Shown here in pieces: positions 932 to 31,902 of a stretch of 31,994 nt of DNA. Location of the stretch: assembly GCA_964403625.1 (NCBI GenBank), contig CAYOHA010000001.1, positions 1 to 31,994 of the forward strand. Reading direction: 5' to 3'. Origin of the DNA: an uncultured Dehalococcoidales bacterium. GTDB taxonomy: Bacteria > Chloroflexota > Dehalococcoidia > Dehalococcoidales > UBA2162. The position numbers were made by a program, and so were the translations under genes. A model generated the notes under the pieces. That model saw nothing but the letters and a program-made list of their open reading frames with translations, was not told the DNA's origin and searched no databases. Every line of letters starts with the position of its first letter. The stretch's first letter is position 1.

Positions 932-984
932 TACTTAATCGTCTGAACATCAGATATTATCAACATTCTAAAAAGGAGAACAAT

Positions 985-2575: not shown

Positions 2576-2641
2576 GGCATTGACCTCCTTACTTAATTAT
2601 TTCAGGCCGTGTAAAAAAGGTGGCGGAGGTGTACTGATATT

Positions 2642-3049: not shown

Positions 3050-3053
3050 TTCT

Positions 3054-4226: not shown

Positions 4227-4273
4227 TTGCTCCTCGCTCGTTCACTGTTTTTTTCGTTTCTGTATCCAAACCT

Positions 4274-5125: not shown

Positions 5126-5674
5126 ATTAACCCCTTACTGTCTGGTTAGATAACGGTTTTATCAGTAATCGCCAGCTTATTATATTATACAACATTTTAA
5201 AGTACCCAGACACTTATGAGACTCGATCTTGACAATAGTCGTGCCTTATTCCGCCAGGTAGCGGGAGGTGGATGGATCGACAATGACCCAGGCGAACTCG
5301 ACCACCTTATACCACTAAAGACTTACTCGTTCATATTTTACCTAGATGATATTTCTTAACTATAAGGAATCGAGTGTTTCTCTGGAAATACCCACTTCAA
5401 TCCCGTAAATATCATCATTGTACTCACCTATCAGCGACACCTGTATTTGGTACTTTATCGGCGTTTCACTCATTCTGATAAAGGGGCCACAGAAAATGAT
5501 GGAATCTACCAGCTTGTCAAGGTATATCTACTCTCAAGAATATCTGGACCTAAGTTGAAGACCCCTCACTAATATCCCTGGTCGCTGAAATGGGAGTAAT
5601 CAATATTTTTAAAATAGCTCCCTCATGTCTGCTATACTAATAGAAAATAGAAATGCGAATTACTTTCAGGCTGG

Positions 5675-6580: not shown

Positions 6581-6583
6581 CTT

Positions 6584-7540: not shown

Positions 7541-7551
7541 TGATAACCTTT

Positions 7552-8781: not shown

Positions 8782-9045
8782 TATCCCTTCCTCTAAATAT
8801 CAATAGGGTTTCCCAACTTTCGTTTTCGATTGAACTTATGTTACTAATTATATTGCGGATTTGAGTAGATGTCTATTATTCATCAATGGTTTTAGTACCG
8901 AACATATTTTTTGTTTTGGAGGATACCTCGCAATAACAGGAGAGTTGATCAAAAAGGGAATAATCAAGACATATTCAGTAATGCTCCCTTTAGTCATTTA
9001 TAAGACTGTATTCAACTGTCTGGTGAGTAAATATATCGGTATGCA

Positions 9046-9075
9046 AATATACCATATTGAAAAAAGATTTGTCAA
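9046..9075 (-). promoter_or_regulatory. Sigma70-type promoter for the CoA-transferase/permease operon
   Basis: Minus strand TTGACA (9075-9070), 18 nt spacer, TG-n-TATATT (9051-9046). Confidence 0.55.
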
Positions 9076-9193
9076 GTGAAATTTCGCCTTAGAATATCGA
9101 TACAACCAGCCTGTATAACACTAAAAGCCCCTCCCCATTACATCCGCAACAATAGCTTTTTCGGTAACTTTTATTATGTGTACATGCCCGTCC

Positions 9194-9252
9194 TTGACAA
9201 GCATCCTCTTATATGCTAAATTATATAACCAATAACTTATTTACTGACTGGA
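9194..9252 (+). promoter_or_regulatory. Sigma70 promoter plus downstream conserved box for the SDR/binding-protein operon (copy 1 of duplicated cassette)
   Basis: TTGACA-17-TAAATT with extended -10 TG. 49/59 identical to the reverse complement of 18150-18208. Confidence 0.75.
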
Positions 9253-9361
9253 TATTTAGTATACTTTTATGGTTATAACTTGTCCGCCTTTATATTGTAA
9301 CAAACAGGTATAGGTTTTATGTGCCTGTGATCAGTAAATAGGAAAAACGTTAAGGGAGAAG

Positions 9362-10282
9362 ATGCTGGTGGGAAAACTAGCAGGTAAAGTAGCGGTGATA
9401 ACCGGGGGCGGCGGTGGTATCGGCGGAGCCGTAGCGATGGAAATGGCTGCCGAAGGGGCCAGAGTTGTTGTTAACGATTTCGGAAAAGATGAGAAAGGCA
9501 ACAACTATGCCGATATTATGGTGGATGCGATCAAGAAATCCGGGGGTGCAGCTGTAGCTAACTATGACGATATCTCCACCATGGCTGGTGGTGCCAACCT
9601 CATCCAAACGGCCATCGAAAACTTTGGTCGTGTTGATATCCTGTTAAATACGGCGGGATTTTCCCGGCGTGGGCCGATGGTGGATATGCCTGAAGAGGAC
9701 TGGGATTCAGTTATAGCGGTCCATCTGAAAGGGCATTTCAGTTGTAGCCAGGCGGCTGCCAGAGAGATGATCAAGCAAAATAGTGGTGGTCGTATCATCA
9801 ATGTCTCCTCGGTAGCGGGCTTTGGGTTCATGGACGTACCCTTTTTCGGAATATCCTATGCCACTGCCAAGGCTGGAGTGGTGGGTTTCACCGGGAAGCT
9901 ATGTGGAGAACTCAGTAAATATGGTATAACGGTCAACGCCATATTCCCCAATGCCAGGACCAAGGGCTTTCCTGAAGAGAGACCTGGAGCCGATACACCG
10001 GACCACATGGCACCATTAATCGTTTATCTGGCTACGGACGAAGCCAAGGATATCACCGGTCAGCTCTTCCATATTGGCCCCGGTGAAGTGGGCCTCTTCC
10101 CGCGGCCAATCCAGCAGCAATCCATTCTTATACGTAAGATGGGTAAATGGACCGTGGATGAACTTAGCAAGGCTGTTCCACAGATGATGCCGCGACAGGG
10201 ACCGCCACCCGGAGGAACAGGTGGGCCTGGCGGACATGGTGGACCGGGCGGACCAGCAGGGTCAGAGAGACCACCGCGGTAA
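9362..10282 (+). CDS. Short-chain dehydrogenase/reductase with a Gly/Pro-rich C-terminal tail
   Basis: TGGGGGIG, VVND, NTAG, NVSS, YATAK. Confidence 0.93.
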   Translation: MLVGKLAGKVAVITGGGGGIGGAVAMEMAAEGARVVVNDFGKDEKGNNYADIMVDAIKKSGGAAVANYDDISTMAGGANLIQTAIENFGRVDILLNTAGFSRRGPMVDMPEEDWDSVIAVHLKGHFSCSQAAAREMIKQNSGGRIINVSSVAGFGFMDVPFFGISYATAKAGVVGFTGKLCGELSKYGITVNAIFPNARTKGFPEERPGADTPDHMAPLIVYLATDEAKDITGQLFHIGPGEVGLFPRPIQQQSILIRKMGKWTVDELSKAVPQMMPRQGPPPGGTGGPGGHGGPGGPAGSERPPR

Positions 10283-10406
10283 ACGTCTTGGTTTTACCGG
10301 GAAGGTTAGAGTATTTTAAGATAACTTAAATTTAATTAAAGGGGGTGCTAAATAAGAAATAAGGATATAGCGTCAGGATAGTATCTTTATTAAGGAGGTT
10401 AAACTT

Positions 10407-12029
10407 GTGAAAAAGGGATTATACAGAAAACTGGTTTATCTCGGGGTGGCCTTGTGTGTTATTGCTTCCATGATATCCATCACCGGCTGCGGTGAACCTA
10501 CCAAAACCACCACACCGACAGCTACCCAGCCAACCATTACCCAAACGGCCAGTCCTACTGCTACACCCGGGCCGCAGTACGGCGGAACCCTGAAAATTCT
10601 GGCTGGCACCGGACAGACTAATATCGGGAATCCAGCAATTGGGTCGCCACCGTTCAACCCCTTCATTCCATCGCCTGGGCTAGAGAGCTTGATGAACCGG
10701 GCTGATGATGGCAGCCCCGTGCCATTCTTGCTTGAAGGCTGGGATCTTGACAGAGACGCCATGACCCTTACCATGCACTTAAAGGAAGGGATCCGGTTCC
10801 ACGACGGCACCCCATTTAACGCCGAGGCGGTCATCTGGTGTGCCCAGGCCCTCATAGATTCAAAGCAGGGGGAGCTGCCGAATGTAGCCTCAATGGAAGC
10901 CCTCGACGAATACACCGTCGTGGTACACATGTCAACCTGGGACATCCTGATGGTAAACTACTTCGTGCTCAAGGCGGGGAACATGTACTCCCCCACGGCC
11001 GTCCAGACGAACGGCGCGGAATGGGCCATGAGTAATCCGGTGGCAACCGGCCCCTTCAAATTCGTGAGTTACGAAACAGATGTCAGCCTCAAATACACGA
11101 GGAACGACGACTACTGGCAGGAAGGAAAACCCTACCTCGACGGCATAGAATGGATATATGTAGCCGACACGATGACGCGGGTAGCTTCTTTCGAGGCGGG
11201 CGAGGCACAAATAGTCACCGGCCTGACTGCCGTGCAGGCTGACGAACTGAAGAAGACCGGTGACTACGTTGTAACGAAAGCTCCTACGCAAATCTTCTCA
11301 CTCTACATGGACAGCGTCAATCCAGATTCTCCCTGGTACAAATTGGAGGTACGGCAGGCCGCAGCCCATGCCATTAACAACCAGGCAATATGTGACGCCT
11401 TTGGCTACGGCTTCTACGAGCCCGCCAACCAGATCGGTTATCCTGGGTACCCCGCGTATAACCCAGATGTCGTTGGCTACGACTACGACCCCGACCTGGC
11501 CAGGCAAATGCTGGCAGACGCCGGCTACTCCGAAGGCTTCGATACCACGATTTGGTTTACAAGTGGCGGCGATAACAGCGTATTCGAGGCGATACAGGGG
11601 TATTGGGAAAAAGTGGGTATACGTACCACATTGGAAATTGTGGATTTCCCCAGGCTTCTTGAGATCTCCACCAAGGGCTGGTTTAACGGCATACAGACCT
11701 TCCTGGCACCTTTCGTGCCGCTCGGCTACCCGCCAGCCAAGAATATAACATTCACCTTCTCACCAACGTCGATTTTCTCGGTTTCCGTTATGCGCCCGGA
11801 CGAAGTCGAGGAGTTGAGAATTCAAGCCCTGGGTGCCGATACCGAGGAAGAGTCGAACGAAATCTGCAAAGAAATCAACCGGCTGCTCGTCGATAAATAC
11901 TGTGTCTTAATCCCGATTTTTGTTTCGCCCAGCATCGCTGCCAAGGTTCCATGGGTGCATGATGACAGAATCTTCGACACGTGGCAGGAACAGTGGTTCC
12001 CGGCAGATGCCTGGTTGGAGCACGAGTAA
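10407..12029 (+). CDS. ABC family-5 substrate-binding lipoprotein
   Basis: Lipobox ITG-C, Thr/Pro linker, QYGGTL, FHDGTPFNAEAV, GPFKF, YWQEGKPYLD, VRQA..AIN. SD AAGGAGG before the GTG start. Confidence 0.93.
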   Translation: MKKGLYRKLVYLGVALCVIASMISITGCGEPTKTTTPTATQPTITQTASPTATPGPQYGGTLKILAGTGQTNIGNPAIGSPPFNPFIPSPGLESLMNRADDGSPVPFLLEGWDLDRDAMTLTMHLKEGIRFHDGTPFNAEAVIWCAQALIDSKQGELPNVASMEALDEYTVVVHMSTWDILMVNYFVLKAGNMYSPTAVQTNGAEWAMSNPVATGPFKFVSYETDVSLKYTRNDDYWQEGKPYLDGIEWIYVADTMTRVASFEAGEAQIVTGLTAVQADELKKTGDYVVTKAPTQIFSLYMDSVNPDSPWYKLEVRQAAAHAINNQAICDAFGYGFYEPANQIGYPGYPAYNPDVVGYDYDPDLARQMLADAGYSEGFDTTIWFTSGGDNSVFEAIQGYWEKVGIRTTLEIVDFPRLLEISTKGWFNGIQTFLAPFVPLGYPPAKNITFTFSPTSIFSVSVMRPDEVEELRIQALGADTEEESNEICKEINRLLVDKYCVLIPIFVSPSIAAKVPWVHDDRIFDTWQEQWFPADAWLEHE

Positions 12030-12077
12030 ACTTAGAATATAGTAAGTAAGTAAAGTAATTAGGTAATCAAGTCACTT

Positions 12078-12130
12078 GAGGGGGCTTGCTTCCACTTCTC
12101 TGAAAAGAGAGGATGGGGGTGAGCCCTCTC
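12078..12130. terminator. Long imperfect GC-rich hairpin (GAAA loop), terminator or REP-like element
   Basis: gagggggct...ctct-gaaa-agag...gagccctctc, downstream of the binding-protein gene. Confidence 0.4.
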
Positions 12131-12242
12131 GTCTAATATTTAGTCGGCAAAAGGCTATAAGGCTCAGGCAGGGTTGGGAGATTTCTTGTCGTGAGTCTTG
12201 ATTTATTGTAAACTATATTCAGGTCACCTTTAATTTTTTATA

Positions 12243-12887
12243 ATGAATGTAAGAAAGGCTGGTCTTTCCGTGTACTCAAGAAAAGTAAAAAATACCGATA
12301 CGGCTGAAAATAGAATGACCGAAATAATAGATGCGGCCTTGAAATTATTCGCCCAGGAAGGTTATCATTCAACCACTCTGGATGCGGTAGCTTCCGAAAT
12401 CGGCGTCACTAAAGCGGCCCTTTATTATTATTTTCGCAATAAAGAGGAAATAATAAGGGCTATTCTGAATCGAAGTATAGACCGCATGAAACAAGTCCTG
12501 GGATTGAGAAAATCCTCTTTATCCGCTAGAGAAAAATTACGTCAATTGATCGTATACCATGTTATATTCGGGACTGATAATGCTGACCTGGCAAAAATCA
12601 CTTTTGAGCAGCTAAGTATACTTCCTAAAAGATCACGTGAGGTCCATAAGCGTAAACAGAGAGAGGTTGTGGCACTTTTACAGGATCTTTTACGCCAGGG
12701 TATTGATGATGGGACTATAGCTGTTGATAATACCAAAATGACTGCCATTGCCATCCTTGGTATGTGCAACTGGACATACCACTGGTATAAGTCGCAAGGG
12801 AAGTTGAGACCAAGGCAAATAGCAGATATATATGTTAACCTTCTGGAAAATGGATATCTAAATAAACCACCTTCTCCGAAAGAGTAA
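12243..12887 (+). CDS. TetR/AcrR-family regulator (KstR2/PaaR-like C-terminal domain); start may be slightly downstream
   Basis: IIDAALKLFAQEGYHSTTLDAVASEIGVTKAALYYYF..KEE helix-turn-helix, and 'AILGMCNWTYHWY'. Confidence 0.92.
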   Translation: MNVRKAGLSVYSRKVKNTDTAENRMTEIIDAALKLFAQEGYHSTTLDAVASEIGVTKAALYYYFRNKEEIIRAILNRSIDRMKQVLGLRKSSLSAREKLRQLIVYHVIFGTDNADLAKITFEQLSILPKRSREVHKRKQREVVALLQDLLRQGIDDGTIAVDNTKMTAIAILGMCNWTYHWYKSQGKLRPRQIADIYVNLLENGYLNKPPSPKE

Positions 12888-12978
12888 AACTAAAATTTGG
12901 AAAGTATCTGGGGGCTACGGGGCCAAACTAAAACCCTCAAAGGTCGTGCGTCCGTGGCAATGGCCTCCTGCCAAAACA

Positions 12979-13392
12979 TCAAACGGTCACCGGTTTAAAC
13001 CTGGGTAATGTAACCTCCGCAGTTACATCGTCAAAGACCGCTTCCACGCGCATCCCTATATATAAGTCATTATTATCACAACCAATAACACTGGAAATGA
13101 GTATAGGTCCTTCGTCCAGTTTGATCCAGCAAACATTATAAGGTACTTCATCTTTCCAGGATGGATGGTAGACCTGGTGTATGATCGTGAAGGTGTATAT
13201 CTCCCCCTGGCCGGTGACTTCGACCCACTCCATCACGGGATGTTCACATTTCATACAGTCGATAGCGGGCCAGTAGTAAGCTCCACAGTTGAGGCACTTA
13301 TATGCCTTGAGTTTATGTTGCTTTGTACCATCCCAGAAAGGCCTGGTGGTTAAAGTTATCGGCGGTAACGCTTTTGCATACTCCGTAGCCAT
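12979..13392 (-). CDS. DUF35 Zn-ribbon/OB-fold protein
   Basis: PFWDG..., CLNCG...CMKC, G.IYTFTIIHQ..HP....VPY, L.IGMRVEAVF. Confidence 0.92.
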   Translation of the reverse strand: MATEYAKALPPITLTTRPFWDGTKQHKLKAYKCLNCGAYYWPAIDCMKCEHPVMEWVEVTGQGEIYTFTIIHQVYHPSWKDEVPYNVCWIKLDEGPILISSVIGCDNNDLYIGMRVEAVFDDVTAEVTLPRFKPVTV

Positions 13393-13394
13393 TT

Positions 13395-14540
13395 CTACCT
13401 CCGTAAAATGAAGCAGGCGGCCGCCAGGCCAAAATCTACAGCACTCAAACCGCCGGTTACCAGGCAGATTTCAGCGTCTTTCACCTGACATTCACCAGCT
13501 TCGCCTCGCAACTGCCGTATCGCTTCTATAAAATGAGTCCAAACATGCAGGTAGCCCCAGGACAGCTCCGTGCCCGAAGTGTTACAGGGTATGGCGCCAC
13601 CCAGCCGGATATTCCCCGCTTCGATGAATGCTCCCTCTTCTCCCCTATGACAAAATCCGTAGCCCGATAGCTGGTCGATGATATTGATGGTAAAGGCATC
13701 GTAGAACTGTGCGACATCTATATCCTTGAGCTCTATGCCTGCCATTTTGAGAGCTTTTTCTCCCGATTTCTTAGCCATTTCACCATCAAACTGGTATACG
13801 GCTTCTATCGATTGTGCCGCCTTACCCATAGAGAAGTCCTGGGAATACCCCATAATATACACCGGGGGACGTCTTAAGCTCCGGGCTTTTTCGGCGGTAG
13901 TGATTATCAGAGCGGCGGCGCCATCGTTAACCAGACAGCAATCCCGGGCCCGCAACGGTTCTGCGATGTACCTGGAATTCAGATAATCTTCCATGGTGAG
14001 TTTCTTATCGTACATTACCGCCTCGGGACGTTTATTGGCGTAATCCCGCAGTGTGGTAGCCACTGCTCCTAGATGCTGCTCGGTAATACCGTATAGATGC
14101 ATGTATCTCTTGGCCCAGCCAGCGGCAATGGCGGCGGCGCCAAATAGGCCGTAGGCTCCTTCTAAGCTCTGTCCACCCATAGGTCCTCCAGCCATTGGCC
14201 TCGATGTGCTGGTGGCATAGACGAGCATTACCGTGTCACATACGCCAGTCTCCAGTGCTCCGATGGCTGAAAGGAAAACGCCGATGCCATGAGTGCCGGA
14301 ACCCTCCAGTTGCCAGATTAATTTGGCGTTTATGCCGATATCCCGCACCACCTCCGTAAGGCGCCCGGTGCCGGGTGCCTGCTGACAGATGAAGCCGGTG
14401 ATATCTGACTTTTTCAATCCGGCGTCTTCGATAGCCAGTAGTGCTGCCTGGACGGCAAGTTCGTGCCCGGTTAGTTCTGGCAGTCTCCCCATTTTAGTGA
14501 AGCCTGACCCTGCAAACGCGTACTTATCCTTGATACTCAT
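13395..14540 (-). CDS. Thiolase-fold protein of Ltp2/aldolase type (lacks thiolase Cys and GHP)
   Basis: LEGSGTHG replaces the Cys motif. FYDAF and SWGYLH resemble Ltp2 YDHF and EAYIH. Coupled to a DUF35 gene. Confidence 0.8.
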   Translation of the reverse strand: MSIKDKYAFAGSGFTKMGRLPELTGHELAVQAALLAIEDAGLKKSDITGFICQQAPGTGRLTEVVRDIGINAKLIWQLEGSGTHGIGVFLSAIGALETGVCDTVMLVYATSTSRPMAGGPMGGQSLEGAYGLFGAAAIAAGWAKRYMHLYGITEQHLGAVATTLRDYANKRPEAVMYDKKLTMEDYLNSRYIAEPLRARDCCLVNDGAAALIITTAEKARSLRRPPVYIMGYSQDFSMGKAAQSIEAVYQFDGEMAKKSGEKALKMAGIELKDIDVAQFYDAFTINIIDQLSGYGFCHRGEEGAFIEAGNIRLGGAIPCNTSGTELSWGYLHVWTHFIEAIRQLRGEAGECQVKDAEICLVTGGLSAVDFGLAAACFILRR

Positions 14541-14713: not shown

Positions 14714-15202
14714 TTAAATCCCGTCTTTGGCGCGAACGTATAACTTTTTGCCGTCTTCCAGGGTCTTCAAATACTCACCGGTAAAGCAAACGTTCTGGAA
14801 TATGATGGGCTTATCGACTCTATGATACGTTAGCGGGCAATGCATCATACCCTTGGGAATGTAGATAATGGTAGGTTTGGTGATGACCTGCTTTTCGCCT
14901 TCCTCACCGAGGTAAAACCAGACTTCTGCCTGGAAGTCACTGAGGTCGCTCGGGTCTCCGCCATAAAAGTGGGCGCACTGGTCATAATCATGGGAATGCG
15001 GCACCTGCTCCATCATGAAAGGTTGGGTAATATAGGTCAACCTCATCCAGTAGTTAATGCCACCAAAGTGAGTCGAACCGTCAAAGGCCAGCCTTTTCGG
15101 CCCTTTCTTGTTGGTCATTTTACCAGTTTTTGGGTCCCTCATCGGAAATCCATCGATTACAAAGTCATCCGCGAGGTATTTCGCATACTTTAGTTTTGCC
15201 AT
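14714..15202 (-). CDS. His-rich cupin-like protein of unknown function
   Basis: PHSHDYD..FYGGDP..F.AE..LGEE.E..IT.P..YIP.G..HCPL. SD AAAGGAGG. Paralog at 18511. Confidence 0.75.
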   Translation of the reverse strand: MAKLKYAKYLADDFVIDGFPMRDPKTGKMTNKKGPKRLAFDGSTHFGGINYWMRLTYITQPFMMEQVPHSHDYDQCAHFYGGDPSDLSDFQAEVWFYLGEEGEKQVITKPTIIYIPKGMMHCPLTYHRVDKPIIFQNVCFTGEYLKTLEDGKKLYVRAKDGI

Positions 15203-18149: not shown

Positions 18150-18208
18150 TCTGGTCAGTAAATAGGTTATTGGTAAGATAGATTAGCATATCAGGGGATG
18201 ATTGTCAA
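18150..18208 (-). promoter_or_regulatory. Sigma70 promoter cassette for the second SDR (copy 2 of duplicated cassette)
   Basis: Minus strand TTGACA-17-TAATCT with extended -10 TG. 49/59 identical to 9194-9252. Confidence 0.75.
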
Positions 18209-18510: not shown

Positions 18511-18978
18511 ATGAAAAAAACTAAATACGGAAAACACATAATGTCTAAAAAGCTCTATTTTAAGTTTCCACGTGGTTACGTCGGAACATCTTTACTCTCA
18601 CATAAAGGTGAATTGAATCCTAACGTCTGCTTTGGTTATCATTGCATCAATAATACGGAGTATAAACACCCGGAACCTCATACGCACGATTTCGATGAAC
18701 TCCTTGGCTTCGTCGGAGGGAACCCGCTAGATATAACCGACTTCCCAGCGGAGATACACTTTTGTTTAGGGGAAGAACAGGAAGAGCATATAATAACCGA
18801 ACCCTCGATGATTTCTATTCCGGCAGGGCTGGTCCATTGTCCGCTAACCGTCACCAGGTGCGATAAACCTATTGTGATGTTGGAAATATCACTAACCAAA
18901 CATTTCGATAGTTCGGAAATGAAGGCAAAGCGAAAAAGAGAAGCAGCCAAGAAAAAGTCGGCAGTAAAACGAAACTAA
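18511..18978 (+). CDS. His-rich cupin-like protein of unknown function (paralog of 14714-15202)
   Basis: PHTHDFD..FVGGNP..F.AE..LGEE.E..IT.P..SIP.G..HCPL. SD AAAGGAGG. Confidence 0.75.
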   Translation: MKKTKYGKHIMSKKLYFKFPRGYVGTSLLSHKGELNPNVCFGYHCINNTEYKHPEPHTHDFDELLGFVGGNPLDITDFPAEIHFCLGEEQEEHIITEPSMISIPAGLVHCPLTVTRCDKPIVMLEISLTKHFDSSEMKAKRKREAAKKKSAVKRN

Positions 18979-19787
18979 TTTAAGGCAATATCGCCTATAT
19001 TTACGTCGTTTCTTACTTCGATATTGTCGAGTGTCTTGACCGGATGGCCCTCGGCATGTATTTCCAGGGAATAGATGCCCTCTTTCACATCCTTGAACCA
19101 GAATCCCCCGAAGCTGTCGGTATTAGTGGTATACTCTTCACCGTGGCTCGCACCGGTGAGTACGACGCGGGCATCTGAAATACACGAATCTTTCTGCGCG
19201 TCGTATACATCCCCGGTAATAAACGGTTTCGGTAAACCCAGGTAATATACCCTTGGTTTCGTACTTGAATCGGGCTTTAATAACTCCGCCCGGCCGATCA
19301 ATTCTTTTAGTTCTTCTTCCTCGCCGAATTGTAAAGCCCCGGTAGGGCAGACTTCGACACAACGCGGTTCTTTCCATCCCCTGTCCAGCAGATGGGCGCA
19401 GAAGGTACATTTCTGGGCAATGTTGAGAACCTCGTTGAAATATATCACACCGGGATACGGGCATGCATCGATACAATCCCTCCGTCCAGAGCATTTCCCG
19501 GGGTCAATAATCACTATTCCGTCATCCCGCTTGTATATCGCCTGTTGTTTGCAGGCGCTGATGCAAGGCGCCTCATCACAGTGCTGGCATAGCGTGGGGA
19601 GATAGGTGATTTTAACCTTCGGAACCGTTCCCCTGACCATATCGGTGATCTTCATCCAGAATTGGCCGGTATCCGGCTGCGGCTTGGCATAGGGAGTCCA
19701 GTCGTTACCGACATGTTCATCCTTGCAGGCAATTTGGCAATTATAACAACCATTGCACTTGGCAATATCAATAACTAAGACTTTCGT
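18975..19787 (-). CDS. Fe-S (DmsB-like) small subunit of a pyrogallol transhydroxylase-like enzyme; apparent start codon is ACG
   Basis: The frame is open upstream of ATG 19655 and encodes KVLVIDIAKCNGCYNCQIACKDEH. Further Cys clusters and a C-terminal beta-sandwich ('TNTDSFGGFWF') follow. GGAGGT lies 8 nt before ACG at 19787-19785. Confidence 0.85.
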   Translation of the reverse strand, partial: TKVLVIDIAKCNGCYNCQIACKDEHVGNDWTPYAKPQPDTGQFWMKITDMVRGTVPKVKITYLPTLCQHCDEAPCISACKQQAIYKRDDGIVIIDPGKCSGRRDCIDACPYPGVIYFNEVLNIAQKCTFCAHLLDRGWKEPRCVEVCPTGALQFGEEEELKELIGRAELLKPDSSTKPRVYYLGLPKPFITGDVYDAQKDSCISDARVVLTGASHGEEYTTNTDSFGGFWFKDVKEGIYSLEIHAEGHPVKTLDNIEVRNDVNIGDIALN

Positions 19788-19788
19788 G

Positions 19789-22365
19789 CTACTTTACCTC
19801 CAGGTAAGAATCTACACACGGTCCCGCCGCAGGATGGAAGGTCTTCTTGAACGCTTCAGGGTACCGGTCTCTCAGTTCATCAAGATTAGCCCGCTCAATT
19901 TCAACGAGAAAACCGCTGACCGCCATACCGCAGACATTCCGCGACGTAGTGTTCCGGGGAGTAATAGCATTAATAGCTCCACCCCTGTCAATTTCACCGG
20001 GGATGATCGGATCATATTTCGCTCCGTGGTCCTGGCTGACAACGCCGGGCATTATTCTCTCGGTCACATAAGCCCCGGCCAGCACAATACCCCGTTCGTT
20101 ATAAACCTTGACCACATCACCGTTCCGGATACCTCTTGCGGCGGCATCCCCGGGATTGATCCAGACCGGTTGATACTGGTAGCCGTCCGCTCCCCTGACT
20201 TTACAGGTGGGTATTTCCCGTAACCAGGAGATATCTTCATGGTTGGCATGCACCCCCCAACGGGGATGGTTGGACATCATCAGCAAAGGATATGTTTCAG
20301 CCCTGGGATGTAAAAGGCTTTCCTGGTGCGTCTCGCCGTATGGTATCCAGTGAGGGACCGGTGGCCTTTCATCGTCATCAGGGAAATGCTCCTTCAAACC
20401 GACCGATTCGAATTCTATCTTCCCCGTCGGTGTCAGCAGCGGATTCGCCTCGGGATCTTCGTAGAACGGCCTCAGCCCCGGTGGGTCTTCCTTCCAGTTC
20501 GGCGCTACCGGTACCACCCAGTACTTCTTTTCCTTCACTTCTTCCCACTTGACCATGTTCTGGAGGCGGCAATGATCGAAGCACTCTTTTATCCATTCGT
20601 CTACCGTTTTTCCGCCCGTATATTCCTCGGCCAGGCCCAGTCTTTCCGCGATGGCGCACACGATCTCGTAGTCACTCATGCTTTCGCCGATGGACTCAAT
20701 GCACTTTTCTTCCGGGAACAGTACGGTATATTGCCCGCTTAGGTTATCAAAGGAAATATCATCTTCTTCAAATACGGTATTAGCCGGCAAGATGATATCC
20801 GCCAGCATGCAATCGTTTTCCATCCATGGGTGCTGGGCCATCACAAACTCTATTTTTGGATCCCGGAAGGCTTTTACGATCCGGTGCCCCTCGTTCCAGC
20901 AGGTTACCCAGCAGGGAGAATCCGTCCAGACCATGTGGATCTCCGGATTATTTCCCATGGGGAAGGTATAATGTACAAACTGGTTTTCCCGGTTGGTCGT
21001 TTCGGATTCACACCCGTACCAGCTTATCGGCGGGTTGAGTATCGCATCCGGTACCAGCGTCTTGGGAATGAATGATTCATTGACATCAGCGATGTATCCC
21101 CCGCGGTACCCCGCATGTAGGTCTGGACGCATAACCGCTTTCGGCAGCGGATATTGACCGCGGCGGTCGAACATACCCCATTCAAGCATCTTTACCTGCT
21201 GTACTCCCGGTTTACCCAGTCCCTGCATGGCTAGTAGCAAGATTTGAAGTCTAGCCGGTTCGGTTGAGTACGGCCCTCTGATACCGGGTCCGCCGTTACC
21301 GATAACAACGGAAGTCCTTTTTGATGCCCACAGCTGTGCCAGGGCAGTTGCCGTGCGCGCTGGGACCCCGGTTATCTCGGCAGCCCATTGCGGTGTTTTG
21401 GGGATGCCGTCTTCTTTCCCCAGTACATATTCGGCGAACTTGTCAAAACCGTGCGTATGCGTGGCCACATAGTCTTTATCGTACGTCCCTTCGGTAATCC
21501 ATACGTACGCAATCGCCAGGTATAGCGCCGCATCCGTATTCGGCCTGATGGGAATCCAGCGGTCGGCATGGACTCCTGCGGCATAGTTTAAATCCGGTGC
21601 GATATAAATTTGCTGGATACCCAAGTCAGTGAACCAGTAGCTCAGTCGGCTAGCCAGCTGTCCGCCCCAACCCCAGGGGGTGGTTTCCTGGTCACAGCCC
21701 CAGAACAGCAGCAATTCGGCATTTTCTGCAATGTCCGGCATCACATTCGCCTGCGGCACCTGCTGCCCCACCGGTTCCATTCCCCACACGTGTTTGCCGC
21801 CCCACACCCATCCTTCCCAGCTATCCGGATTCCTTGATTGTAGCGTATAACCCCCCAGCAGCTTCAGCAATCTCCGACCGCAGCCGTGAGAGGCATGAAC
21901 AGTCTTGTTCTCGCCGTGGCAATCCGATTGATACAATATAGCGTTGGTCGTATATGTTTTTTTGATTCTGGTGATTTCATCGGCAATAATATCCAGGGCT
22001 TCATCCCAGGATATCCACTCATACTGGCTTTTTCCCCGGTTCTTGATATTCCGGTTACCCTTGTGGTCAAAATCCACCCTTTTCATCGGGTACCTGATAC
22101 GGTTGGGGGAATAGCATCGCTTTTTATAAGAAAGCGTCAGTGGCGGAATCAGGGTCTTCATTGTAGGTTCAAAAGTCTGGCCGCGCGCTTCGATTTTCCA
22201 GGGATTGAATTCTTTAGGATCGTACATCCAGTCGTAGTGTAGTGGTCTGATCCGGATTATTTTGCCGTCTTTCACATCAACCACGGAAGCGTTGGATCCG
22301 TAGGACTCTCCGCACCAGCTGATGTCTTTAATATATGACTCTTCTCTCGTTGTTTCGTTCTTCAA
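19789..22365 (-). CDS. Molybdopterin oxidoreductase (DMSO reductase family), pyrogallol transhydroxylase large-subunit-like
   Basis: VKDGKIIRI.P, WKIEARG.TF.P, ISWDEA, NPDSWEGW (Ser Mo-ligand motif), ADIILPA, and a C-terminal molydopterin-binding domain. No N-terminal Fe-S motif or Tat signal. TTG start. Confidence 0.88.
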   Translation of the reverse strand: MKNETTREESYIKDISWCGESYGSNASVVDVKDGKIIRIRPLHYDWMYDPKEFNPWKIEARGQTFEPTMKTLIPPLTLSYKKRCYSPNRIRYPMKRVDFDHKGNRNIKNRGKSQYEWISWDEALDIIADEITRIKKTYTTNAILYQSDCHGENKTVHASHGCGRRLLKLLGGYTLQSRNPDSWEGWVWGGKHVWGMEPVGQQVPQANVMPDIAENAELLLFWGCDQETTPWGWGGQLASRLSYWFTDLGIQQIYIAPDLNYAAGVHADRWIPIRPNTDAALYLAIAYVWITEGTYDKDYVATHTHGFDKFAEYVLGKEDGIPKTPQWAAEITGVPARTATALAQLWASKRTSVVIGNGGPGIRGPYSTEPARLQILLLAMQGLGKPGVQQVKMLEWGMFDRRGQYPLPKAVMRPDLHAGYRGGYIADVNESFIPKTLVPDAILNPPISWYGCESETTNRENQFVHYTFPMGNNPEIHMVWTDSPCWVTCWNEGHRIVKAFRDPKIEFVMAQHPWMENDCMLADIILPANTVFEEDDISFDNLSGQYTVLFPEEKCIESIGESMSDYEIVCAIAERLGLAEEYTGGKTVDEWIKECFDHCRLQNMVKWEEVKEKKYWVVPVAPNWKEDPPGLRPFYEDPEANPLLTPTGKIEFESVGLKEHFPDDDERPPVPHWIPYGETHQESLLHPRAETYPLLMMSNHPRWGVHANHEDISWLREIPTCKVRGADGYQYQPVWINPGDAAARGIRNGDVVKVYNERGIVLAGAYVTERIMPGVVSQDHGAKYDPIIPGEIDRGGAINAITPRNTTSRNVCGMAVSGFLVEIERANLDELRDRYPEAFKKTFHPAAGPCVDSYLEVK

Positions 22366-22468: not shown

Positions 22469-22508
22469 AATATAATACTAAACAAGTAATTAGTCAATAC
22501 ATTGACTA
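22469..22508 (-). promoter_or_regulatory. Promoter of the molybdoenzyme operon overlapped by a palindromic candidate MarR operator
   Basis: Minus strand TTGACT (22497-22492)-17-TATATT (22474-22469). Palindrome tagtcaat-ac-attgacta at 22491-22508. Confidence 0.65.
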
Positions 22509-22562: not shown

Positions 22563-23129
22563 ATGAGATACTATTGCTTCATGAATACACCCCCAAAAAC
22601 AGGTGCTAATGATTCTCGCCATCTCGCCACCGTTCAGTATATCGATAATACGGGGAGGTTCCCGCGGGTTAGATTATTCTTCAGGCTGCTTACCTTTGCT
22701 GATACTCTTAATAAATATGCCGGCATAGAAGTAAGGGAAAAAGGTGATAACCGTACCGGACTAGCTGTTTTGCAGATTTTACTCAAATATCCGGATGGTA
22801 TCTCTCAGCAAGAGATAGCCAAGCAAACGGGTAGAACCAAGCAGGCAATTGTGATGGCGATTAACAAACTTGAGCAGCAAAACTACCTTCAAAGACGTTC
22901 GAATAGCTACGATAGAAGGATGAATTCCATTATTATTACCCAAGAGGGGATTGATCATCTCAACGAAGTGTTCCCCCACACTCTGGCCATGTGTGATAGT
23001 GTTTTATCATCTTTTAGTGATGAAGAAATCGATCAATTCATCACCCTCAGTGGAAAATTGACGAAACGGCTGTGGCAGCAGATCGAAGCTGAATCATCGG
23101 AATTTGAACAGCGTGTAGAAGAGGAATAA
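22563..23129 (+). CDS. MarR-family winged-helix regulator (start may be 22581 or later)
   Basis: 'GISQQEIAKQTGRTKQAIVMAINKLEQQNYLQR....DRR...I.IT..G'. Divergent from the molybdoenzyme operon. Confidence 0.9.
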   Translation: MRYYCFMNTPPKTGANDSRHLATVQYIDNTGRFPRVRLFFRLLTFADTLNKYAGIEVREKGDNRTGLAVLQILLKYPDGISQQEIAKQTGRTKQAIVMAINKLEQQNYLQRRSNSYDRRMNSIIITQEGIDHLNEVFPHTLAMCDSVLSSFSDEEIDQFITLSGKLTKRLWQQIEAESSEFEQRVEEE

Positions 23130-28636: not shown

Positions 28637-29875
28637 ATGGCAACGAAAAAGAGCAATCAGGGTAAGGGAAGACTTCCCCCGGTTCTGAAGAGGTTTGAGG
28701 GAAATCCCATTCTTAGGCCAGAACCCAAACACTGGTGGGAGTCAAAAGCGGTCTTCAACCCAGCCGCCATCTACGAAGACAATAAGGTCCATATTCTATA
28801 CCGAGCGCTGGGGGATACTGACACCTCAGTAATTGGATATGCATCCAGCCTCGATGGATTTCACATTGACGAGCGGTTGGACAAACCTGTGTATGTGCCT
28901 CGGGAGCCATTTGAAGGTGTTGGTGCAATACGTCATACTGAGGCTAAGCTATCTGATAACTATACATCCGGAGGAAGTTTTTCCGGTGGGTGTGAAGACC
29001 CCAGACTGACCAGAATTGATGACAGGGTTTATTTAACTTATGTTGCGTATGATGGCTACAGTTCCCCCAGGATAGCATTAAGTTCAATACACATTAATGA
29101 TTTCCTTGGCAAAAATTGGAAATGGAAAAAGCCAGTCCTCATCTCACGACCAGATATTGTGGATAAAAATGCCTGCATCTTGCCGGAAAAAATAGATGGT
29201 AAATATGTCATCTTTCACCGGATTTTTCCCGACATTTTGATTGATTTCGTCGATGATCTAGATTTCGATGGTGAAGGAAGGTGGTTAGAGGGGCAGTTCA
29301 AAATACCGATCAGAGAATCAAGCTCTAGCTGGGATAGCCGTAAGGTTGCTGCTGGACCGCCACCGATGAGAACAAAAGACGGGTGGTTGTTCATCTACCA
29401 CGCTATTGATGATAAGGATGAATTCCGTTATAAGATGGGTGCGATGCTACTTGCTATAAAAGACCCCCCGAGAGTTCTGGCGCGTACCACACACCCCATT
29501 CTGGAACCTTCGGCACGCTATGAGAATGAAGGTTTGAAGTCAGGGGTAATCTATCCGTGCGGCGCTGTAATCTTGGATGACCAGCTATTTGTCTATTATG
29601 GTGGGGCAGATATGGTAGTGTGCGTAGCAACGGCAAAAATGAGCGAATTTATGTCACGGCTAAGCTACGAATGTGAACCGGTACAGGTTAGCGTCACAGT
29701 GAATCCGAGCGCAAATGTCACTATCAAAACAGAGGGACATATCCAGGGATACTGTGTTAAGTGTCATGCGAAGGCGGAGATAAAGAATCCTCACCATCTA
29801 ATTATGAAAAACAAAAGGCATGCAGTTCAGGGTATTTGTCCCAAATGCGGAACCAAAATGGTTAAGTTTGGATAG
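28637..29875 (+). CDS. GH130 glycoside phosphorylase/hydrolase with C-terminal DUF5679-like zinc-ribbon domain
   Basis: NPIL, FNPAA, GCEDPR, DKNA.ILPEKIDG....HR, WDSRKV..G.PP, YH, V.YPCG..., YYGGAD. Tail YCVKC...GICPKCGTKM. Confidence 0.9.
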   Translation: MATKKSNQGKGRLPPVLKRFEGNPILRPEPKHWWESKAVFNPAAIYEDNKVHILYRALGDTDTSVIGYASSLDGFHIDERLDKPVYVPREPFEGVGAIRHTEAKLSDNYTSGGSFSGGCEDPRLTRIDDRVYLTYVAYDGYSSPRIALSSIHINDFLGKNWKWKKPVLISRPDIVDKNACILPEKIDGKYVIFHRIFPDILIDFVDDLDFDGEGRWLEGQFKIPIRESSSSWDSRKVAAGPPPMRTKDGWLFIYHAIDDKDEFRYKMGAMLLAIKDPPRVLARTTHPILEPSARYENEGLKSGVIYPCGAVILDDQLFVYYGGADMVVCVATAKMSEFMSRLSYECEPVQVSVTVNPSANVTIKTEGHIQGYCVKCHAKAEIKNPHHLIMKNKRHAVQGICPKCGTKMVKFG

Positions 29876-29907
29876 AGTCAGGGTGAAATTATGAGGGTTT
29901 GATTTTT

Positions 29908-31902
29908 ATGACTGAAATAAGGCGTTCCGAAGAAAATCCCGTTTTGATACCTTTGAGTGAAAACACATGGGAGGCGGATGGAGCATTTAATGGCTGTCCG
30001 GTACGTGATGGCGGTAAGATTCACTTTGTTTATCGGGCGATTTCACTGCCTCAAAAGATAGCCGGTCATGAATTACCTCTGTCTACTGTTGGTTATGCTT
30101 TAAGCAATGACGGCATACACTTCAGGAACCGCCGTCAGTTCATCAAACCGGAGCACGACTGGGAGCAATTCGGTTGTGAAGACCCGCGTGTCACCAAAAT
30201 GGATGGTAAATTCTATGTCTTCTATACGGCACTGGCAACTTTCCCATTCTGTGCCGAGTGTATTAGAGTCGGCGTAGCCATTACTCGTGATTTCAAGAAG
30301 ATTGATGAAAAGCACCTGGTCACAACTTTCAACTCCAAGGCAATGTCTCTCTTTCCAGAGAAGATTGATGGTAAATATGCCATCGTTTTAAGCGTTAATA
30401 CTGATGTTCCGCCCACAAGAATTGCGGTTGCTTATTTTGACCGTGAGGAACAGATGTGGTCACCAACATACTGGGAAGGCTGGTACTCACACCTGAATGA
30501 TAGTGTTATTCCTTTGCAGAGGTCATCCAAAGACCATGTTGAAGCAGGCGCTCCGCCCATCAAAACCAAAGCTGGTTGGTTATTAATCTACTCATACATT
30601 CAGAGTTATTTTTCGCCGCCGGCGATTTTTGGTATTGAAGCGGCTCTACTTGACCTGTATGACCCGCGTCGGATAATCGCACGCACTGAAGCTCCATTGC
30701 TGGTGCCTCAAGAAGCCTACGAAAAATATGGCAAGGTGCCTAATATCGTCTTTCCAACGGGGGCAATGGTTAAAGATGGCACATTATATCTTTACTATGG
30801 CGCTGCCGACACGACCTGTGCCGTCGCCACCTGTAAACTGGACACTCTTCTGGAGGATATACTGGAGACAAGGATAAAGCAGATAAAGCTGGAGCGTTTC
30901 CCCGGCAATCCTGTAATTAAGCCCAACCCCAAACTTTCATGGCAAGCAAAAGCAGTTTTTAATCCGACTGCTCTGTACGAATATAGCAGAGTTCATCTTG
31001 CTTACCGGGCGATGTCTGAAGACAATACCTCCGTAATTGGGTTTGCCTCCAGCGCCGATGGATATAATTTTGACGACCAATCATCTGAGCCAATGTACAC
31101 CCCCCGTGAAGAATTTGAAGCTAAACTGGTGCCGGGCGGCAATTCAGGCTGCGAAGATCCAAGACTGACCAGAATAGATGATACGATTTATATGTTGTAC
31201 ACCGCCTTTAACGGTAGAAGTGACCCGCGGGTGGCATTAACCCAAATTTCCCTGGATGACTTTCTAACAAGGCGTTGGAACTGGTCACGACCCGTTCTGA
31301 TTTCGCCACCGAATTTGTCTGATAAAGATGCAGCTATTTTCCCCAAGAAAATCAAAGGCAAATATGCTATCCTGCATCGTTTAGGCACGAGTATCTGGCT
31401 GGATTTGGTGAATGATTTGAAATTTGAGGGCAATAAATGGCTCGGTGGGCATATTTTCATGAGTCCGAAAGACGAGTTGCCAGACACAGATAGACTCGGC
31501 ATCTCCGGACCACCGATTGAGACTAAATACGGCTGGCTCCTGCTTTACCACGCTGCTTCCAGAAAAACACAACCAATGACATATTATGTTTCGGCGGCTT
31601 TGCTTGATTTGAAGGATCCATCTAAAGTCCTTGCTCGTCGGAAAGTGCCCATCCTTGAACCGGAAACGCCTTATGAATTATATGGTCAGGTAAATAATGT
31701 GGTTTTTCCGTGCGGTGCGGCAATCATTGGTGAAGATCTGTTTGTTTTTTACGGTGGGGCTGATAGTGTCATTGGCGTTGCGACAATGAAAGTAGAGGAC
31801 CTGCTTAATAGCCTGATTACCTGGGGAGAAATTGGAGACGATGTGATAAAACTAGGCAAATTAAAATGGGGCACCTTCCGCTTCTCTCATTTGAGAAAGT
31901 AG
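29908..31902 (+). CDS. Tandem two-domain GH130 protein
   Basis: Two complete sets of NP/FN/GCEDPR/GxPP/VFPxG/YG.AD motifs. ATG 29908 has better SD spacing than TTG 29899. Confidence 0.9.
   Translation: MTEIRRSEENPVLIPLSENTWEADGAFNGCPVRDGGKIHFVYRAISLPQKIAGHELPLSTVGYALSNDGIHFRNRRQFIKPEHDWEQFGCEDPRVTKMDGKFYVFYTALATFPFCAECIRVGVAITRDFKKIDEKHLVTTFNSKAMSLFPEKIDGKYAIVLSVNTDVPPTRIAVAYFDREEQMWSPTYWEGWYSHLNDSVIPLQRSSKDHVEAGAPPIKTKAGWLLIYSYIQSYFSPPAIFGIEAALLDLYDPRRIIARTEAPLLVPQEAYEKYGKVPNIVFPTGAMVKDGTLYLYYGAADTTCAVATCKLDTLLEDILETRIKQIKLERFPGNPVIKPNPKLSWQAKAVFNPTALYEYSRVHLAYRAMSEDNTSVIGFASSADGYNFDDQSSEPMYTPREEFEAKLVPGGNSGCEDPRLTRIDDTIYMLYTAFNGRSDPRVALTQISLDDFLTRRWNWSRPVLISPPNLSDKDAAIFPKKIKGKYAILHRLGTSIWLDLVNDLKFEGNKWLGGHIFMSPKDELPDTDRLGISGPPIETKYGWLLLYHAASRKTQPMTYYVSAALLDLKDPSKVLARRKVPILEPETPYELYGQVNNVVFPCGAAIIGEDLFVFYGGADSVIGVATMKVEDLLNSLITWGEIGDDVIKLGKLKWGTFRFSHLRK

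What the first reader, a model, noticed from the sequence alone, without database searches (positions are those of the whole stretch)
19789..22365. Transhydroxylase-like molybdoenzyme with a remodelled substrate pocket
Seen: the Asp-Ser-Trp Mo-ligand motif (NPDSWEGW) and the upstream His (DCHG) are retained. Aligning from memory to the Pelobacter acidigallici enzyme (SSHHMWGNVGYRH), the Ser before His becomes Cys and the Tyr-Arg pair becomes Ala-Ser (DCHGENKTVHASH). Inference: the same Mo chemistry acts on a different substrate, making this a candidate new hydroxyl-transfer or dehydroxylation enzyme under MarR control.
Basis: partly seen in the sequence, partly recalled or inferred. Interest (0 to 1): 0.58.

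Follow-up and report, generated by a model that had tools for sequence, protein, structure and literature searches.

The report
Uncharacterised cousin of pyrogallol transhydroxylase
This gene encodes a molybdenum enzyme related to the one that lets anaerobes rearrange plant trihydroxybenzenes, but it belongs to a large, untested sister branch with a rebuilt substrate pocket and an extra iron-sulfur site, so its usual "pyrogallol hydroxytransferase" label is probably wrong.

Summary
ORF 19789-22365 (-) is an intact 858-aa AthL-like molybdoenzyme. Its best solved relative is P. acidigallici transhydroxylase (TH): E 2.5e-149, model TM 0.87. It keeps TH His144 and Asp174-Ser175-Trp176.

The remodelling goes further and is not special to this gene:
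- Two aligners put TH's Tyr404 on Leu416.
- The TH Tyr560 loop is deleted.
- The protein sits in a well-supported sister clade (84 leaves, support 0.98) with its own signature, D-x-H-G-E-x-K...H-G-C.
- The clade occurs in Dehalococcoidia, Actinomycetes, Desulfobacterota, Oscillospiraceae and Eggerthellaceae.
- AthL and RhL, the two members with assigned functions that I could place, lie outside it.

The partner Fe-S subunit (18975-19787) keeps the cysteines of a fourth, NarH-type 3-Cys cluster that TH lacks. That argues for net electron transfer rather than redox-neutral transhydroxylation.

A divergent MarR gene and an 8-2-8 palindrome over the -35 recur in the nearest relative.

The substrate is unknown. 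Earlier notes of this scan describe the same sister branch on other DNA. Verdict: a new variant of a known kind, of moderate interest.

The parts
19789..22365 (-). alpha (catalytic) subunit, 858 aa, AthL-like bis-MGD molybdoenzyme of the 'HGExK' sister clade; no Tat signal and no N-terminal Fe-S (FS0) Cys motif
21886..21924 (-). pocket strand DCHGENKTVHASH (residues 148-160); His150 = TH His144; Asp148, Glu152, Lys154 and His160 are invariant in 121 close homologs
21808..21831 (-). NPDSWEGW; Ser182 is the predicted Mo ligand and Asp181 = TH Asp174
21097..21129 (-). RPDLHAGYRGG (residues 413-423), the stretch equivalent to TH FPGY404AEGG; Leu416 sits at the Tyr404 column
20716..20763 (-). DDISFDNLSGQYTVLF (residues 535-550), a shortened version of the TH Tyr560 loop (9-10 residues missing)
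18975..19787 (-). beta (Fe-S) subunit, 270 aa if read from ACG at 19787-19785. Cys groups: I (19725-19757), II (19551-19589, 4 Cys), III (19458-19493, C-x5-C-x3-CP, second Cys replaced by Arg), IV (19344-19409). C-terminal CarboxypepD_reg-like barrel as in TH BthL
19797..19801 (-). GGAGG Shine-Dalgarno sequence, with 9 nt between it and the ACG codon that occupies the beta start position
22491..22508 (.). palindrome TAGTCAAT-AC-ATTGACTA overlapping the -35 of the alpha-beta promoter; candidate MarR operator, conserved in L071
22469..22497 (-). sigma-70-like promoter (TTGACT, 17 nt spacer, TATATT) for alpha-beta
22563..23129 (+). divergent MarR-family regulator gene (188 aa)

Best explanation
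Genes 19789-22365 and 18975-19787 encode a soluble, cytoplasmic two-subunit Mo-bisMGD/Fe-S enzyme of the AthL/RhL (pyrogallol transhydroxylase / resorcinol hydroxylase) family. It belongs to a large sister clade in which I found no member with an assigned function. Shown: family membership, clade placement, retention of the Ser-Mo ligand with Asp181 and His150, loss of the TH-type pocket (His145, Trp147, Gly148, Tyr152, Arg153, Tyr404, Tyr560 loop), a new invariant polar set (Asp148, Glu152, Lys154, His160), and a beta subunit with 15 motif cysteines including a NarH-like 3-Cys distal site. Inferred: the enzyme binds a hydroxylated aromatic, or a similarly polar small molecule taken up by a nearby ABC transporter, at the Mo centre. 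It then carries out a net two-electron hydroxyl-group reaction: either water-dependent hydroxylation or reductive dehydroxylation. Electrons pass along a four-cluster wire to or from an unidentified soluble partner. It does not perform the redox-neutral, cosubstrate-dependent pyrogallol-to-phloroglucinol transfer. Transcription is probably repressed by the divergent MarR protein bound to the palindrome over the -35, and relieved by the substrate or a related phenolic.
For: Family: Pfam PF21423/PF00384/PF01568; 4v4c_A E 2.5e-149; AF2 model pLDDT 93.2 with Foldseek top hit 4v4c_A, TMq 0.87, rmsd 2.8, against 0.77-0.80 for DMSO/TMAO reductases. Clade: FastTree on 131 sequences gives the HGExK clade 84 leaves at support 0.98 and the TH-type clade 11 leaves at 0.998. 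TH-type sequences keep Ser143, His144, His145, Gly148, Tyr152, Asp174, Ser175 and Trp176 in 12/12, and Tyr404 in 11/12 (the exception is a TH fragment that is garbled in that stretch). HGExK sequences have L/I/V/M at the Tyr404 column. RhL of Azoarcus anaerobius carries PSHHQWGNIGYY, so it is TH-type (Data Set S1B of PMC7327174). Beta subunit: the alignment to 4v4c_B shows TH lacks the group II fourth Cys and group III Cys 1-3, while this protein has them, except group III Cys2, which is Arg. Most betas paired with HGExK alphas have 3 or 4 group III Cys. The assignment of these cysteines to the distal FS4 cluster follows established NarH/DmsB cluster assignments (my knowledge, Rothery et al.). 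Phenolic context: in relatives L016 and L017 (73% and 67% identical) the alpha-beta pair is followed directly by a TH-type alpha. A UroD-like methyltransferase plus B12-binding protein pair (O-demethylase-like) lies at window 2-1623 and also near the alpha in L051 and L065. Transport: SBP_bac_5/Opp-type or Peripla_BP_6 ABC systems adjoin the pair in L013, L047, L058, L073, L074 and L075. Regulation: MarR is divergent here and in L071, and the palindrome is conserved while the flanks diverge. Not canonical TH: no PF04199 cyclase (dihydrophloroglucinol cyclohydrolase family, PMC10470551) was found in the 82%-complete genome.
Against: No member of the clade has been assayed, so substrate, direction of electron flow and even the aromatic nature of the substrate are inferences. 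No electron partner gene is evident in the window. Some clade members (L061, L044, L038) have lost the fourth-cluster cysteines as TH has, so the extra cluster is not universal. The Tyr404-to-Leu416 assignment rests on sequence alignment through a length-variable loop of lower model confidence (pLDDT 82-84). Tyr420, four residues on, could occupy the same space, and I could not inspect coordinates. SBP_bac_5 transporters are not typical aromatic-acid binders. The genome is incomplete, so the absence of the phloroglucinol pathway is not proven.
Confidence: 0.55

Rival explanations
1. It is a redox-neutral transhydroxylase acting on a different polyphenol, for example one step of the hydroxyhydroquinone-to-phloroglucinol series described for Pelobacter massiliensis, or a tetrahydroxybenzene isomerisation. 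It would use the same Mo-bound phenolate chemistry as TH.
For: His144, Asp174, Ser175 and Trp176 equivalents are retained. In L016 and L017 a clade member and a TH-type alpha share one operon and one beta, as expected for sequential hydroxyl shuffling. Tyr420 in AGYRGG is conserved in 90/121 close homologs and might replace Tyr404.
Against: The Tyr404 column is hydrophobic across the clade, and Tyr420 is not conserved clade-wide. The beta subunit keeps a distal cluster site that TH has dispensed with.
Confidence: 0.2
2. It is an anaerobic C-H hydroxylase acting on an alkyl or alicyclic substrate. Its alcohol product would be oxidised by the neighbouring SDR and aldehyde dehydrogenase, and degraded by the Bbs-like thiolase/DUF35, CoA-transferase, hydratase and hydroxyacyl-CoA dehydrogenase genes.
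For: The order alpha-beta-SDR-ALDH-cupin-like-thiolase-DUF35 is kept in the window and in L071. The SDR's second-best solved relative is BbsD, and the thiolase/DUF35 pair gives weak BbsB/BbsA matches. A four-cluster beta suits a dehydrogenase.
Against: The linkage holds only in the nearest relative; homologs at 67-85% identity lack it. The SDR block has its own promoter, a copy of the one before the second SDR gene (49/59 identical), so it is a separate unit from the MarR-linked pair. Known anaerobic alkyl hydroxylases belong to the Asp-ligated EbdA type (ethylbenzene dehydrogenase matches at only E 1.7e-14).
Confidence: 0.12
3. It is a genuine pyrogallol-phloroglucinol transhydroxylase whose pocket has merely drifted, as existing Chloroflexi annotations assume.
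For: It is the best solved-structure match and shares the two-subunit architecture with the C-terminal beta-barrel. Similar genes in Chloroflexi MAGs are annotated this way (PMC3971608, PMC4959651).
Against: It fails the TH-type invariants His145, Gly148, Tyr152, Arg/Lys153 and Tyr404 and lacks the Tyr560 loop. True TH-type paralogs exist in related genomes beside clade members, so the two are distinct functions. No DPGC-type cyclase was found in the genome.
Confidence: 0.06
4. It is an S- or N-oxide reductase like its next-nearest relatives (DMSO/TMAO/biotin sulfoxide reductases).
For: The second tier of solved relatives is DorA/TorA/MtsZ (E about 1e-83, TM 0.77-0.80). NCBIfam's best hit is the bisC family, far below its cut-off (387 vs 1018 bits).
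Against: It shares the TH-specific N-P-D-S-W-E-G-W motif rather than the DorA-type motif, carries the AthL-like N-terminal domain, and has a dedicated BthL-like beta subunit, which DorA, TorA and BisC lack.
Confidence: 0.05

Closest known systems
Pyrogallol-phloroglucinol transhydroxylase AthL/BthL (PgtL) of Pelobacter acidigallici, EC 1.97.1.2, PDB 4V4C/D/E
   Same: Same fold and domain order (TMq 0.87). Cytoplasmic, with no Tat signal and no FS0. Ser-ligated Mo in an N-P-D-S-W-E-G-W motif, with Asp174 and His144 equivalents. The beta subunit has ferredoxin-type Cys groups and a C-terminal seven-stranded-barrel-type (CarboxypepD_reg-like) domain.
   Different: About 35-42% identity and a separate clade. 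The pocket strand is DCHGENKTVHASH instead of SSHHMWGNVGYRH. Leu sits at the Tyr404 column and the Tyr560 loop is shortened. The beta subunit has 15 rather than 12 motif cysteines, restoring a distal 3-Cys site.
Resorcinol hydroxylase RhL/RhS of Azoarcus (Aromatoleum) anaerobius
   Same: Same family. A net-redox hydroxylase using water, which is the kind of reaction proposed here.
   Different: RhL carries the TH-type strand PSHHQWGNIGYY and therefore sits with AthL, not with this protein. RhS was not available for comparison.
Gut actinobacterial catechol dehydroxylases (Dadh, Cldh, Hcdh, Dodh)
   Same: bis-MGD enzymes that remove hydroxyl groups from phenolics reductively, a candidate reaction type for this clade.
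   Different: They cluster with acetylene hydratase, away from AthL (PMC7028382). Acetylene hydratase matches this protein only at E 1.7e-13 and TM 0.61.
'Pyrogallol hydroxytransferase' genes reported in Chloroflexi/Dehalococcoidia MAGs and single cells (RBG-2, RBG-1351, DEH-C11)
   Same: Same phylum and the same kind of multi-copy AthLS-like genes, interpreted as polyphenol catabolism (PMC3971608, PMC4959651).
   Different: Those reports do not separate TH-type genes from the sister-clade type. This gene is of the sister type.

Membership tests
AthL/RhL family of Ser-ligated, cytoplasmic bis-MGD enzymes (Pfam PF21423-bearing) | AthL-like N-terminal domain plus Molybdopterin and Molydop_binding domains | tested here: met
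   PF21423 46.4 bits (cut-off 27), PF00384 94.6 bits, PF01568 67.9 bits; Foldseek TMq 0.87 to 4v4c_A
AthL/RhL family of Ser-ligated, cytoplasmic bis-MGD enzymes (Pfam PF21423-bearing) | Ser Mo ligand within N-P-D-S-W-E-G-W | tested here: met
   Residues 179-186; Ser182 in 121/121 and Asp181 in 118/121 close homologs
AthL/RhL family of Ser-ligated, cytoplasmic bis-MGD enzymes (Pfam PF21423-bearing) | No Tat signal or FS0 cluster; partner BthL-like Fe-S subunit with a C-terminal barrel | tested here: met
   The N-terminus has no RR motif or CxxCxxxC. Beta matches 4v4c_B at E 3.8e-57 over residues 4-251; Fer4_11 + CarboxypepD_reg
Pyrogallol-phloroglucinol transhydroxylase sensu stricto (TH-type clade: AthL, RhL) | Pocket strand S-S-H-H-x-W-G-N-x-G-Y-(R/K/Y) | tested here: not met
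   The strand is S-D-C-H-G-E-N-K-T-V-H-A-S; only His144 is kept
Pyrogallol-phloroglucinol transhydroxylase sensu stricto (TH-type clade: AthL, RhL) | Tyr404 in F-P-G-Y-A-E-G-G | tested here: not met
   MAFFT and profile-HMM alignments both give Leu416. The motif is absent. The column is Tyr in 11/12 TH-type sequences and L/I/V/M in the sister clade. Caveat: the loop varies in length and no 3D check was possible
Pyrogallol-phloroglucinol transhydroxylase sensu stricto (TH-type clade: AthL, RhL) | Loop S-G-Y560-I-P...N-H-R | tested here: not met
   9-10 residue deletion, reading SGQY. The role of Tyr560 is recalled from memory only
Pyrogallol-phloroglucinol transhydroxylase sensu stricto (TH-type clade: AthL, RhL) | Beta subunit with only three [4Fe-4S] clusters (distal site lost) | tested here: not met
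   Group II fourth Cys and group III Cys 1, 3 and 4 are present here and absent in 4v4c_B
Pyrogallol-phloroglucinol transhydroxylase sensu stricto (TH-type clade: AthL, RhL) | Phylogenetic placement inside the clade holding AthL | tested here: not met
   Separate clades with support 0.98 and 0.998
Pyrogallol-phloroglucinol transhydroxylase sensu stricto (TH-type clade: AthL, RhL) | Genome also encodes the phloroglucinol pathway (PGR, DPGC cyclase, TfD, TAL) | tested here: inconclusive
   No PF04199 cyclase found; BKACE is present elsewhere; the genome is only 82% complete
Pyrogallol-phloroglucinol transhydroxylase sensu stricto (TH-type clade: AthL, RhL) | Pyrogallol-to-phloroglucinol activity with tetrahydroxybenzene as cosubstrate | not testable with these tools
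   Needs an anaerobic enzyme assay
Catechol dehydroxylases (acetylene-hydratase-related bis-MGD clade) | Closest characterised relative is acetylene hydratase or Dadh | tested here: not met
   Acetylene hydratase 2e7z E 1.7e-13 against TH 2.5e-149; literature placement in PMC7028382
DMSO/TMAO/biotin sulfoxide reductases (DorA/TorA/BisC) | Reaches family score thresholds; single-subunit enzyme | tested here: not met
   TIGR00509 387 bits against a cut-off of 1018; TorA models are far below cut-off; a dedicated beta subunit is present

The most novel reading that the evidence does not exclude
The HGExK clade, of which this is an intact, regulator-linked example, is a distinct and widespread class of cytoplasmic Mo/Fe-S enzymes. 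It would catalyse a net-redox hydroxyl-group reaction on non-catechol phenolics (water-dependent ring hydroxylation or reductive dehydroxylation) that no described enzyme accounts for. That would give Dehalococcoidia and other anaerobes an unrecognised route into polyphenol carbon in sediments, peat and guts.
Probability: 0.35. Interest if true: 0.7.

Novelty: new variant of a known kind. Interest (0 to 1): 0.42.

Why it matters
Genes of this type are routinely annotated as pyrogallol hydroxytransferase or as S/N-oxide reductase. They are used to argue that subsurface Chloroflexi ferment tannin-derived trihydroxybenzenes. If the sister clade does something else, those metabolic reconstructions need revising. 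It would also mean that a sizeable enzyme class in anaerobic polyphenol or organic-matter turnover, a large share of the thousands of family homologs in public data, has no known reaction. This locus is a convenient entry point: one intact alpha-beta pair with its own regulator and a conserved operator.

Tried and rejected
1. Reading the TH structure paper (PMC511022) and the RhL paper (PMC1913315): neither is held. The catalytic roles of Tyr404, Arg153 and Tyr560 therefore rest on my memory of Messerschmidt et al. 2004.
2. Literature searches for residue names found nothing. A search including 'AthL' matched 'athlete' and was wasted.
3. The only TH-cluster representative returned (P0240) is a fragment that turns to nonsense after about residue 298. 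I mapped TH residues 387-445 from the HMMER print-outs instead.
4. No tool returns model coordinates, so a residue-level 3D pocket comparison with 4V4C was not possible. Only global fold scores were obtained.
5. The idea that the SDR is a phloroglucinol reductase and the small His-rich proteins are the ring-opening enzyme was rejected. The SDR's best solved relatives are FabG and BbsD. The known dihydrophloroglucinol cyclohydrolase is a cyclase/isatin-hydrolase-type Mn enzyme, not a cupin (PMC10470551). No such cyclase was found in the genome.
6. Programmed +1 frameshifting to fuse alpha and beta at the stop codon was considered and set aside. Homologs have an ordinary start codon at exactly the ACG position, and a GGAGG lies upstream with 9 nt between it and the ACG.
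7. Neighbourhood comparison did not yield a conserved pathway beyond alpha-beta plus a transporter and a regulator.
Full report
**What is there.** The minus-strand ORF 19789-22365 is open from a TTG (GAGGG 9 nt upstream) and gives an 858-aa protein, P0001.
- Pfam finds the AthL-like first domain (PF21423), the molybdopterin oxidoreductase domain and the dinucleotide-binding domain.
- Among solved structures the best match by far is the large subunit of Pelobacter acidigallici pyrogallol-phloroglucinol transhydroxylase (TH), 4v4c_A, at E 2.5e-149. DMSO and TMAO reductases follow at about 1e-83, and acetylene hydratase at 1.7e-13.
- An AlphaFold2 model built on 54 homologs is confident (mean pLDDT 93.2, pTM 0.93).
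- Its best Foldseek hit is again 4v4c_A (TMq 0.87, rmsd 2.8 A), ahead of MtsZ, DorA and TorA at 0.77-0.80.
- The N-terminus has no twin-arginine signal and no FS0 cysteine motif, as in TH.

- TH His144 = His150.
- Asp174-Ser175-Trp176 = Asp181-Ser182-Trp183, within NPDSWEGW.
- TH Ser143 is Cys149.
- TH Tyr152-Arg153 are Ala158-Ser159.

**The remodelling is deeper than noted.** I printed the full TH sequence through a TH-like query and a family profile.
- TH Tyr404 lies in F-P-G-Y-A-E-G-G.
- Both the profile alignment and an independent MAFFT alignment of 132 family members put Leu416 (R-P-D-L) at that column, anchored on the conserved Pro.
- The TH loop S-G-Y560-I-P-D-N-Y-Q-L-C-N-H-R is shortened by 9-10 residues.

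The catalytic importance of Tyr404, Arg153 and Tyr560 is from my memory of Messerschmidt et al. 2004, which I could not open. The loop around residue 416 varies in length and is among the less confident parts of the model (pLDDT 82-84). Tyr420 could conceivably substitute, and I could not inspect coordinates.

**It is a clade signature, not a private change.** A FastTree phylogeny of 131 sequences covered window paralogs, 56 genome loci and the full-length 50%-cluster representatives.
- One clade of 11 sequences (support 0.998) keeps S-S-H-H-x-W-G-N-x-G-Y, F-P-G-Y-A-E-G-G and the long Tyr560 loop.
- A second clade of 84 leaves (support 0.98) carries D-x-H-G-E-x-K-x-V-H-x-x-H-G-C. P0001 lies in this one.
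- Among 121 close homologs (63% identity or more), Asp148, His150, Glu152, Lys154, His160, Ser182 and Trp183 are invariant.
- The clade occurs in Dehalococcoidales, Actinomycetes, Desulfospira and Desulfobacterium, Sporobacter and Papillibacter, and Eggerthellaceae including Raoultibacter and Ellagibacter, often in tandem arrays.
- The AthL/RhL family as a whole is abundant in public data. There are 6932 hits among 8000 scored candidates at 90% clustering, the 120 best of them at 63% identity or more, and 759 representatives at E 1e-30 or better at 50% clustering.
- Within the window's own order the family is patchy and multi-copy: 12 of 81 genomes searched carry it.
- The window's genome, an 82%-complete MAG of 349 contigs, has three family members. 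Two are of this clade (C1 and C234). The third (C49) is a divergent type lacking the Asp. No TH-type copy was found.

**Are any clade members characterised?** I found none.
- The AthL sequence has the TH-type strand.
- The RhL (resorcinol hydroxylase) sequence of Azoarcus anaerobius reads P-S-H-H-Q-W-G-N-I-G-Y-Y with N-P-D-S-W-E-G-W, so it is also TH-type. It is printed in Data Set S1B of PMC7327174.
- Catechol dehydroxylases of gut Actinobacteria belong to a different, acetylene-hydratase-related branch (PMC7028382).
- Published Chloroflexi genomics labels such genes pyrogallol hydroxytransferase without distinguishing the two types (PMC3971608, PMC4959651).
- The MopB superfamily survey treats RhL/PgtL as one family (PMC10100899).

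Earlier notes of this scan describe the same uncharacterised sister branch on other DNA. I re-derived the clade split and the extra Fe-S site independently here.

**The partner subunit.** Directly after the alpha stop, the frame 19787-18975 encodes a 270-aa BthL-like protein (4v4c_B, E 3.8e-57) with the C-terminal barrel domain.
- TH beta has 12 motif cysteines. It lacks the fourth Cys of group II and the first three of group III.
- This protein has group II complete (C-QH-C-DEAP-C-ISA-C).
- Its group III reads C-SG-R-RD-C-IDA-C-P, that is three Cys with Arg at the second position.
- By the established assignment in NarH/DmsB-type four-cluster proteins (my knowledge), those ligands build the distal FS4 cluster. 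Replacement of the second Cys is the hallmark of a [3Fe-4S] centre.
- Betas paired with alphas of this clade mostly have three or four group III cysteines. A few, and the TH-type beta, have lost them.

I take this as the strongest indication that the enzyme exchanges electrons with a partner, unlike TH.

**Regulation and context.**
- A MarR gene (22563-23129) is divergent.
- The 197-bp spacer holds a sigma-70-like promoter for alpha-beta and an 8-2-8 palindrome, TAGTCAAT-AC-ATTGACTA (22491-22508), over its -35.
- The nearest relative (L071, a JGI metagenome contig; alpha 93% identical) has the same MarR arrangement. It keeps the palindrome (TAGTCAAT-AA-GTTGACTA) while the surrounding spacer has diverged.
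- Downstream genes are an SDR, an aldehyde dehydrogenase, a cupin-like protein, an SCP-x-type thiolase and a DUF35 protein. This order is conserved only in L071.
- In the window that block has its own promoter, a 49/59 copy of the one before a second SDR gene.
- More distant clade members keep only alpha-beta plus an ABC transporter (SBP_bac_5 or Peripla_BP_6) and a TetR or MarR regulator.
- Two relatives (L016, L017) place a TH-type alpha right after the clade alpha-beta.
- The window also carries a UroD-like methyltransferase with a B12-binding protein.

The last two points favour phenolic substrates.

**Conclusion.** The gene is a real, intact member of the AthL/RhL family, but it fails the defining features of a pyrogallol transhydroxylase. 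Most likely it is a net-redox hydroxylase or reductive dehydroxylase acting on an imported phenolic, under MarR control. I cannot tell the direction of the reaction or the substrate. It is one more example of a widespread, uncharacterised variant rather than a singular find.

Noticed in passing
window 19785-19801 (-); L071 about 12578-12600: The beta subunit has no ATG/GTG/TTG before its first Cys motif. ACG sits exactly where homologs have ATG, GTG or TTG, with 9 nt between GGAGG and the ACG. The nearest relative from an independent metagenome (L071) also has ACG. It is therefore not a sequencing error, and gene callers truncate the protein to 226-227 aa in both.
   Followed up: partly
window 14714-15202 (-) and 18511-18978 (+); L037 3902-4321: Two paralogous proteins of about 160 aa (P0272, P0273) carry H-x-H-D...E and P-x-G-x-x-H-C-P cupin-like motifs but no Pfam hit. 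Their look-alike clusters are Chloroflexota-dominated hypothetical proteins. One homolog lies directly upstream of an 85%-identical alpha in L037.
   Followed up: partly
L016 9884-17627; L017 3985-10048: In two relatives, one operon reads sister-clade alpha, then beta, then a TH-type alpha (and in L016 a further alpha). Both active-site types share a single Fe-S subunit.
   Followed up: partly
window 9194-9252 (+) and 18150-18208 (-): A 59-bp promoter cassette (TTGACA plus an extended -10), 49/59 identical, precedes both SDR genes. This suggests co-regulation of the two SDR-led units separately from the MarR-linked alpha-beta pair.
   Followed up: partly
window 2-1623 (+): A UroD-like methyltransferase and a B12-binding-domain protein lie side by side, the layout of corrinoid-dependent O-demethylase systems. 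UroD-like genes also lie near the alpha in L051 and L065.
   Followed up: no
window 1793-14540: A dense set of CoA-dependent beta-oxidation-type genes: enoyl-CoA hydratase, two DUF35 + SCP-x thiolase pairs, hydroxyacyl-CoA dehydrogenase and a family III CoA-transferase. With them are Opp-type permeases, an SBP_bac_5 protein and a TetR regulator. No transporter ATPase genes were seen among the ORFs of 100 aa or more that I scanned.
   Followed up: no
window 28637-31902 (+): Two adjacent GH130 (mannoside phosphorylase-type) genes. The first ends in a DUF5679 domain, and the second is double-length with two GH130 matches.
   Followed up: no
G000 contig C49 1395-3770 (L003): A third family paralog (41% identical) has H-S-M-W-G and N-P-M-S-W: the Asp next to the Ser ligand is Met. 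It falls outside both named clades.
   Followed up: no
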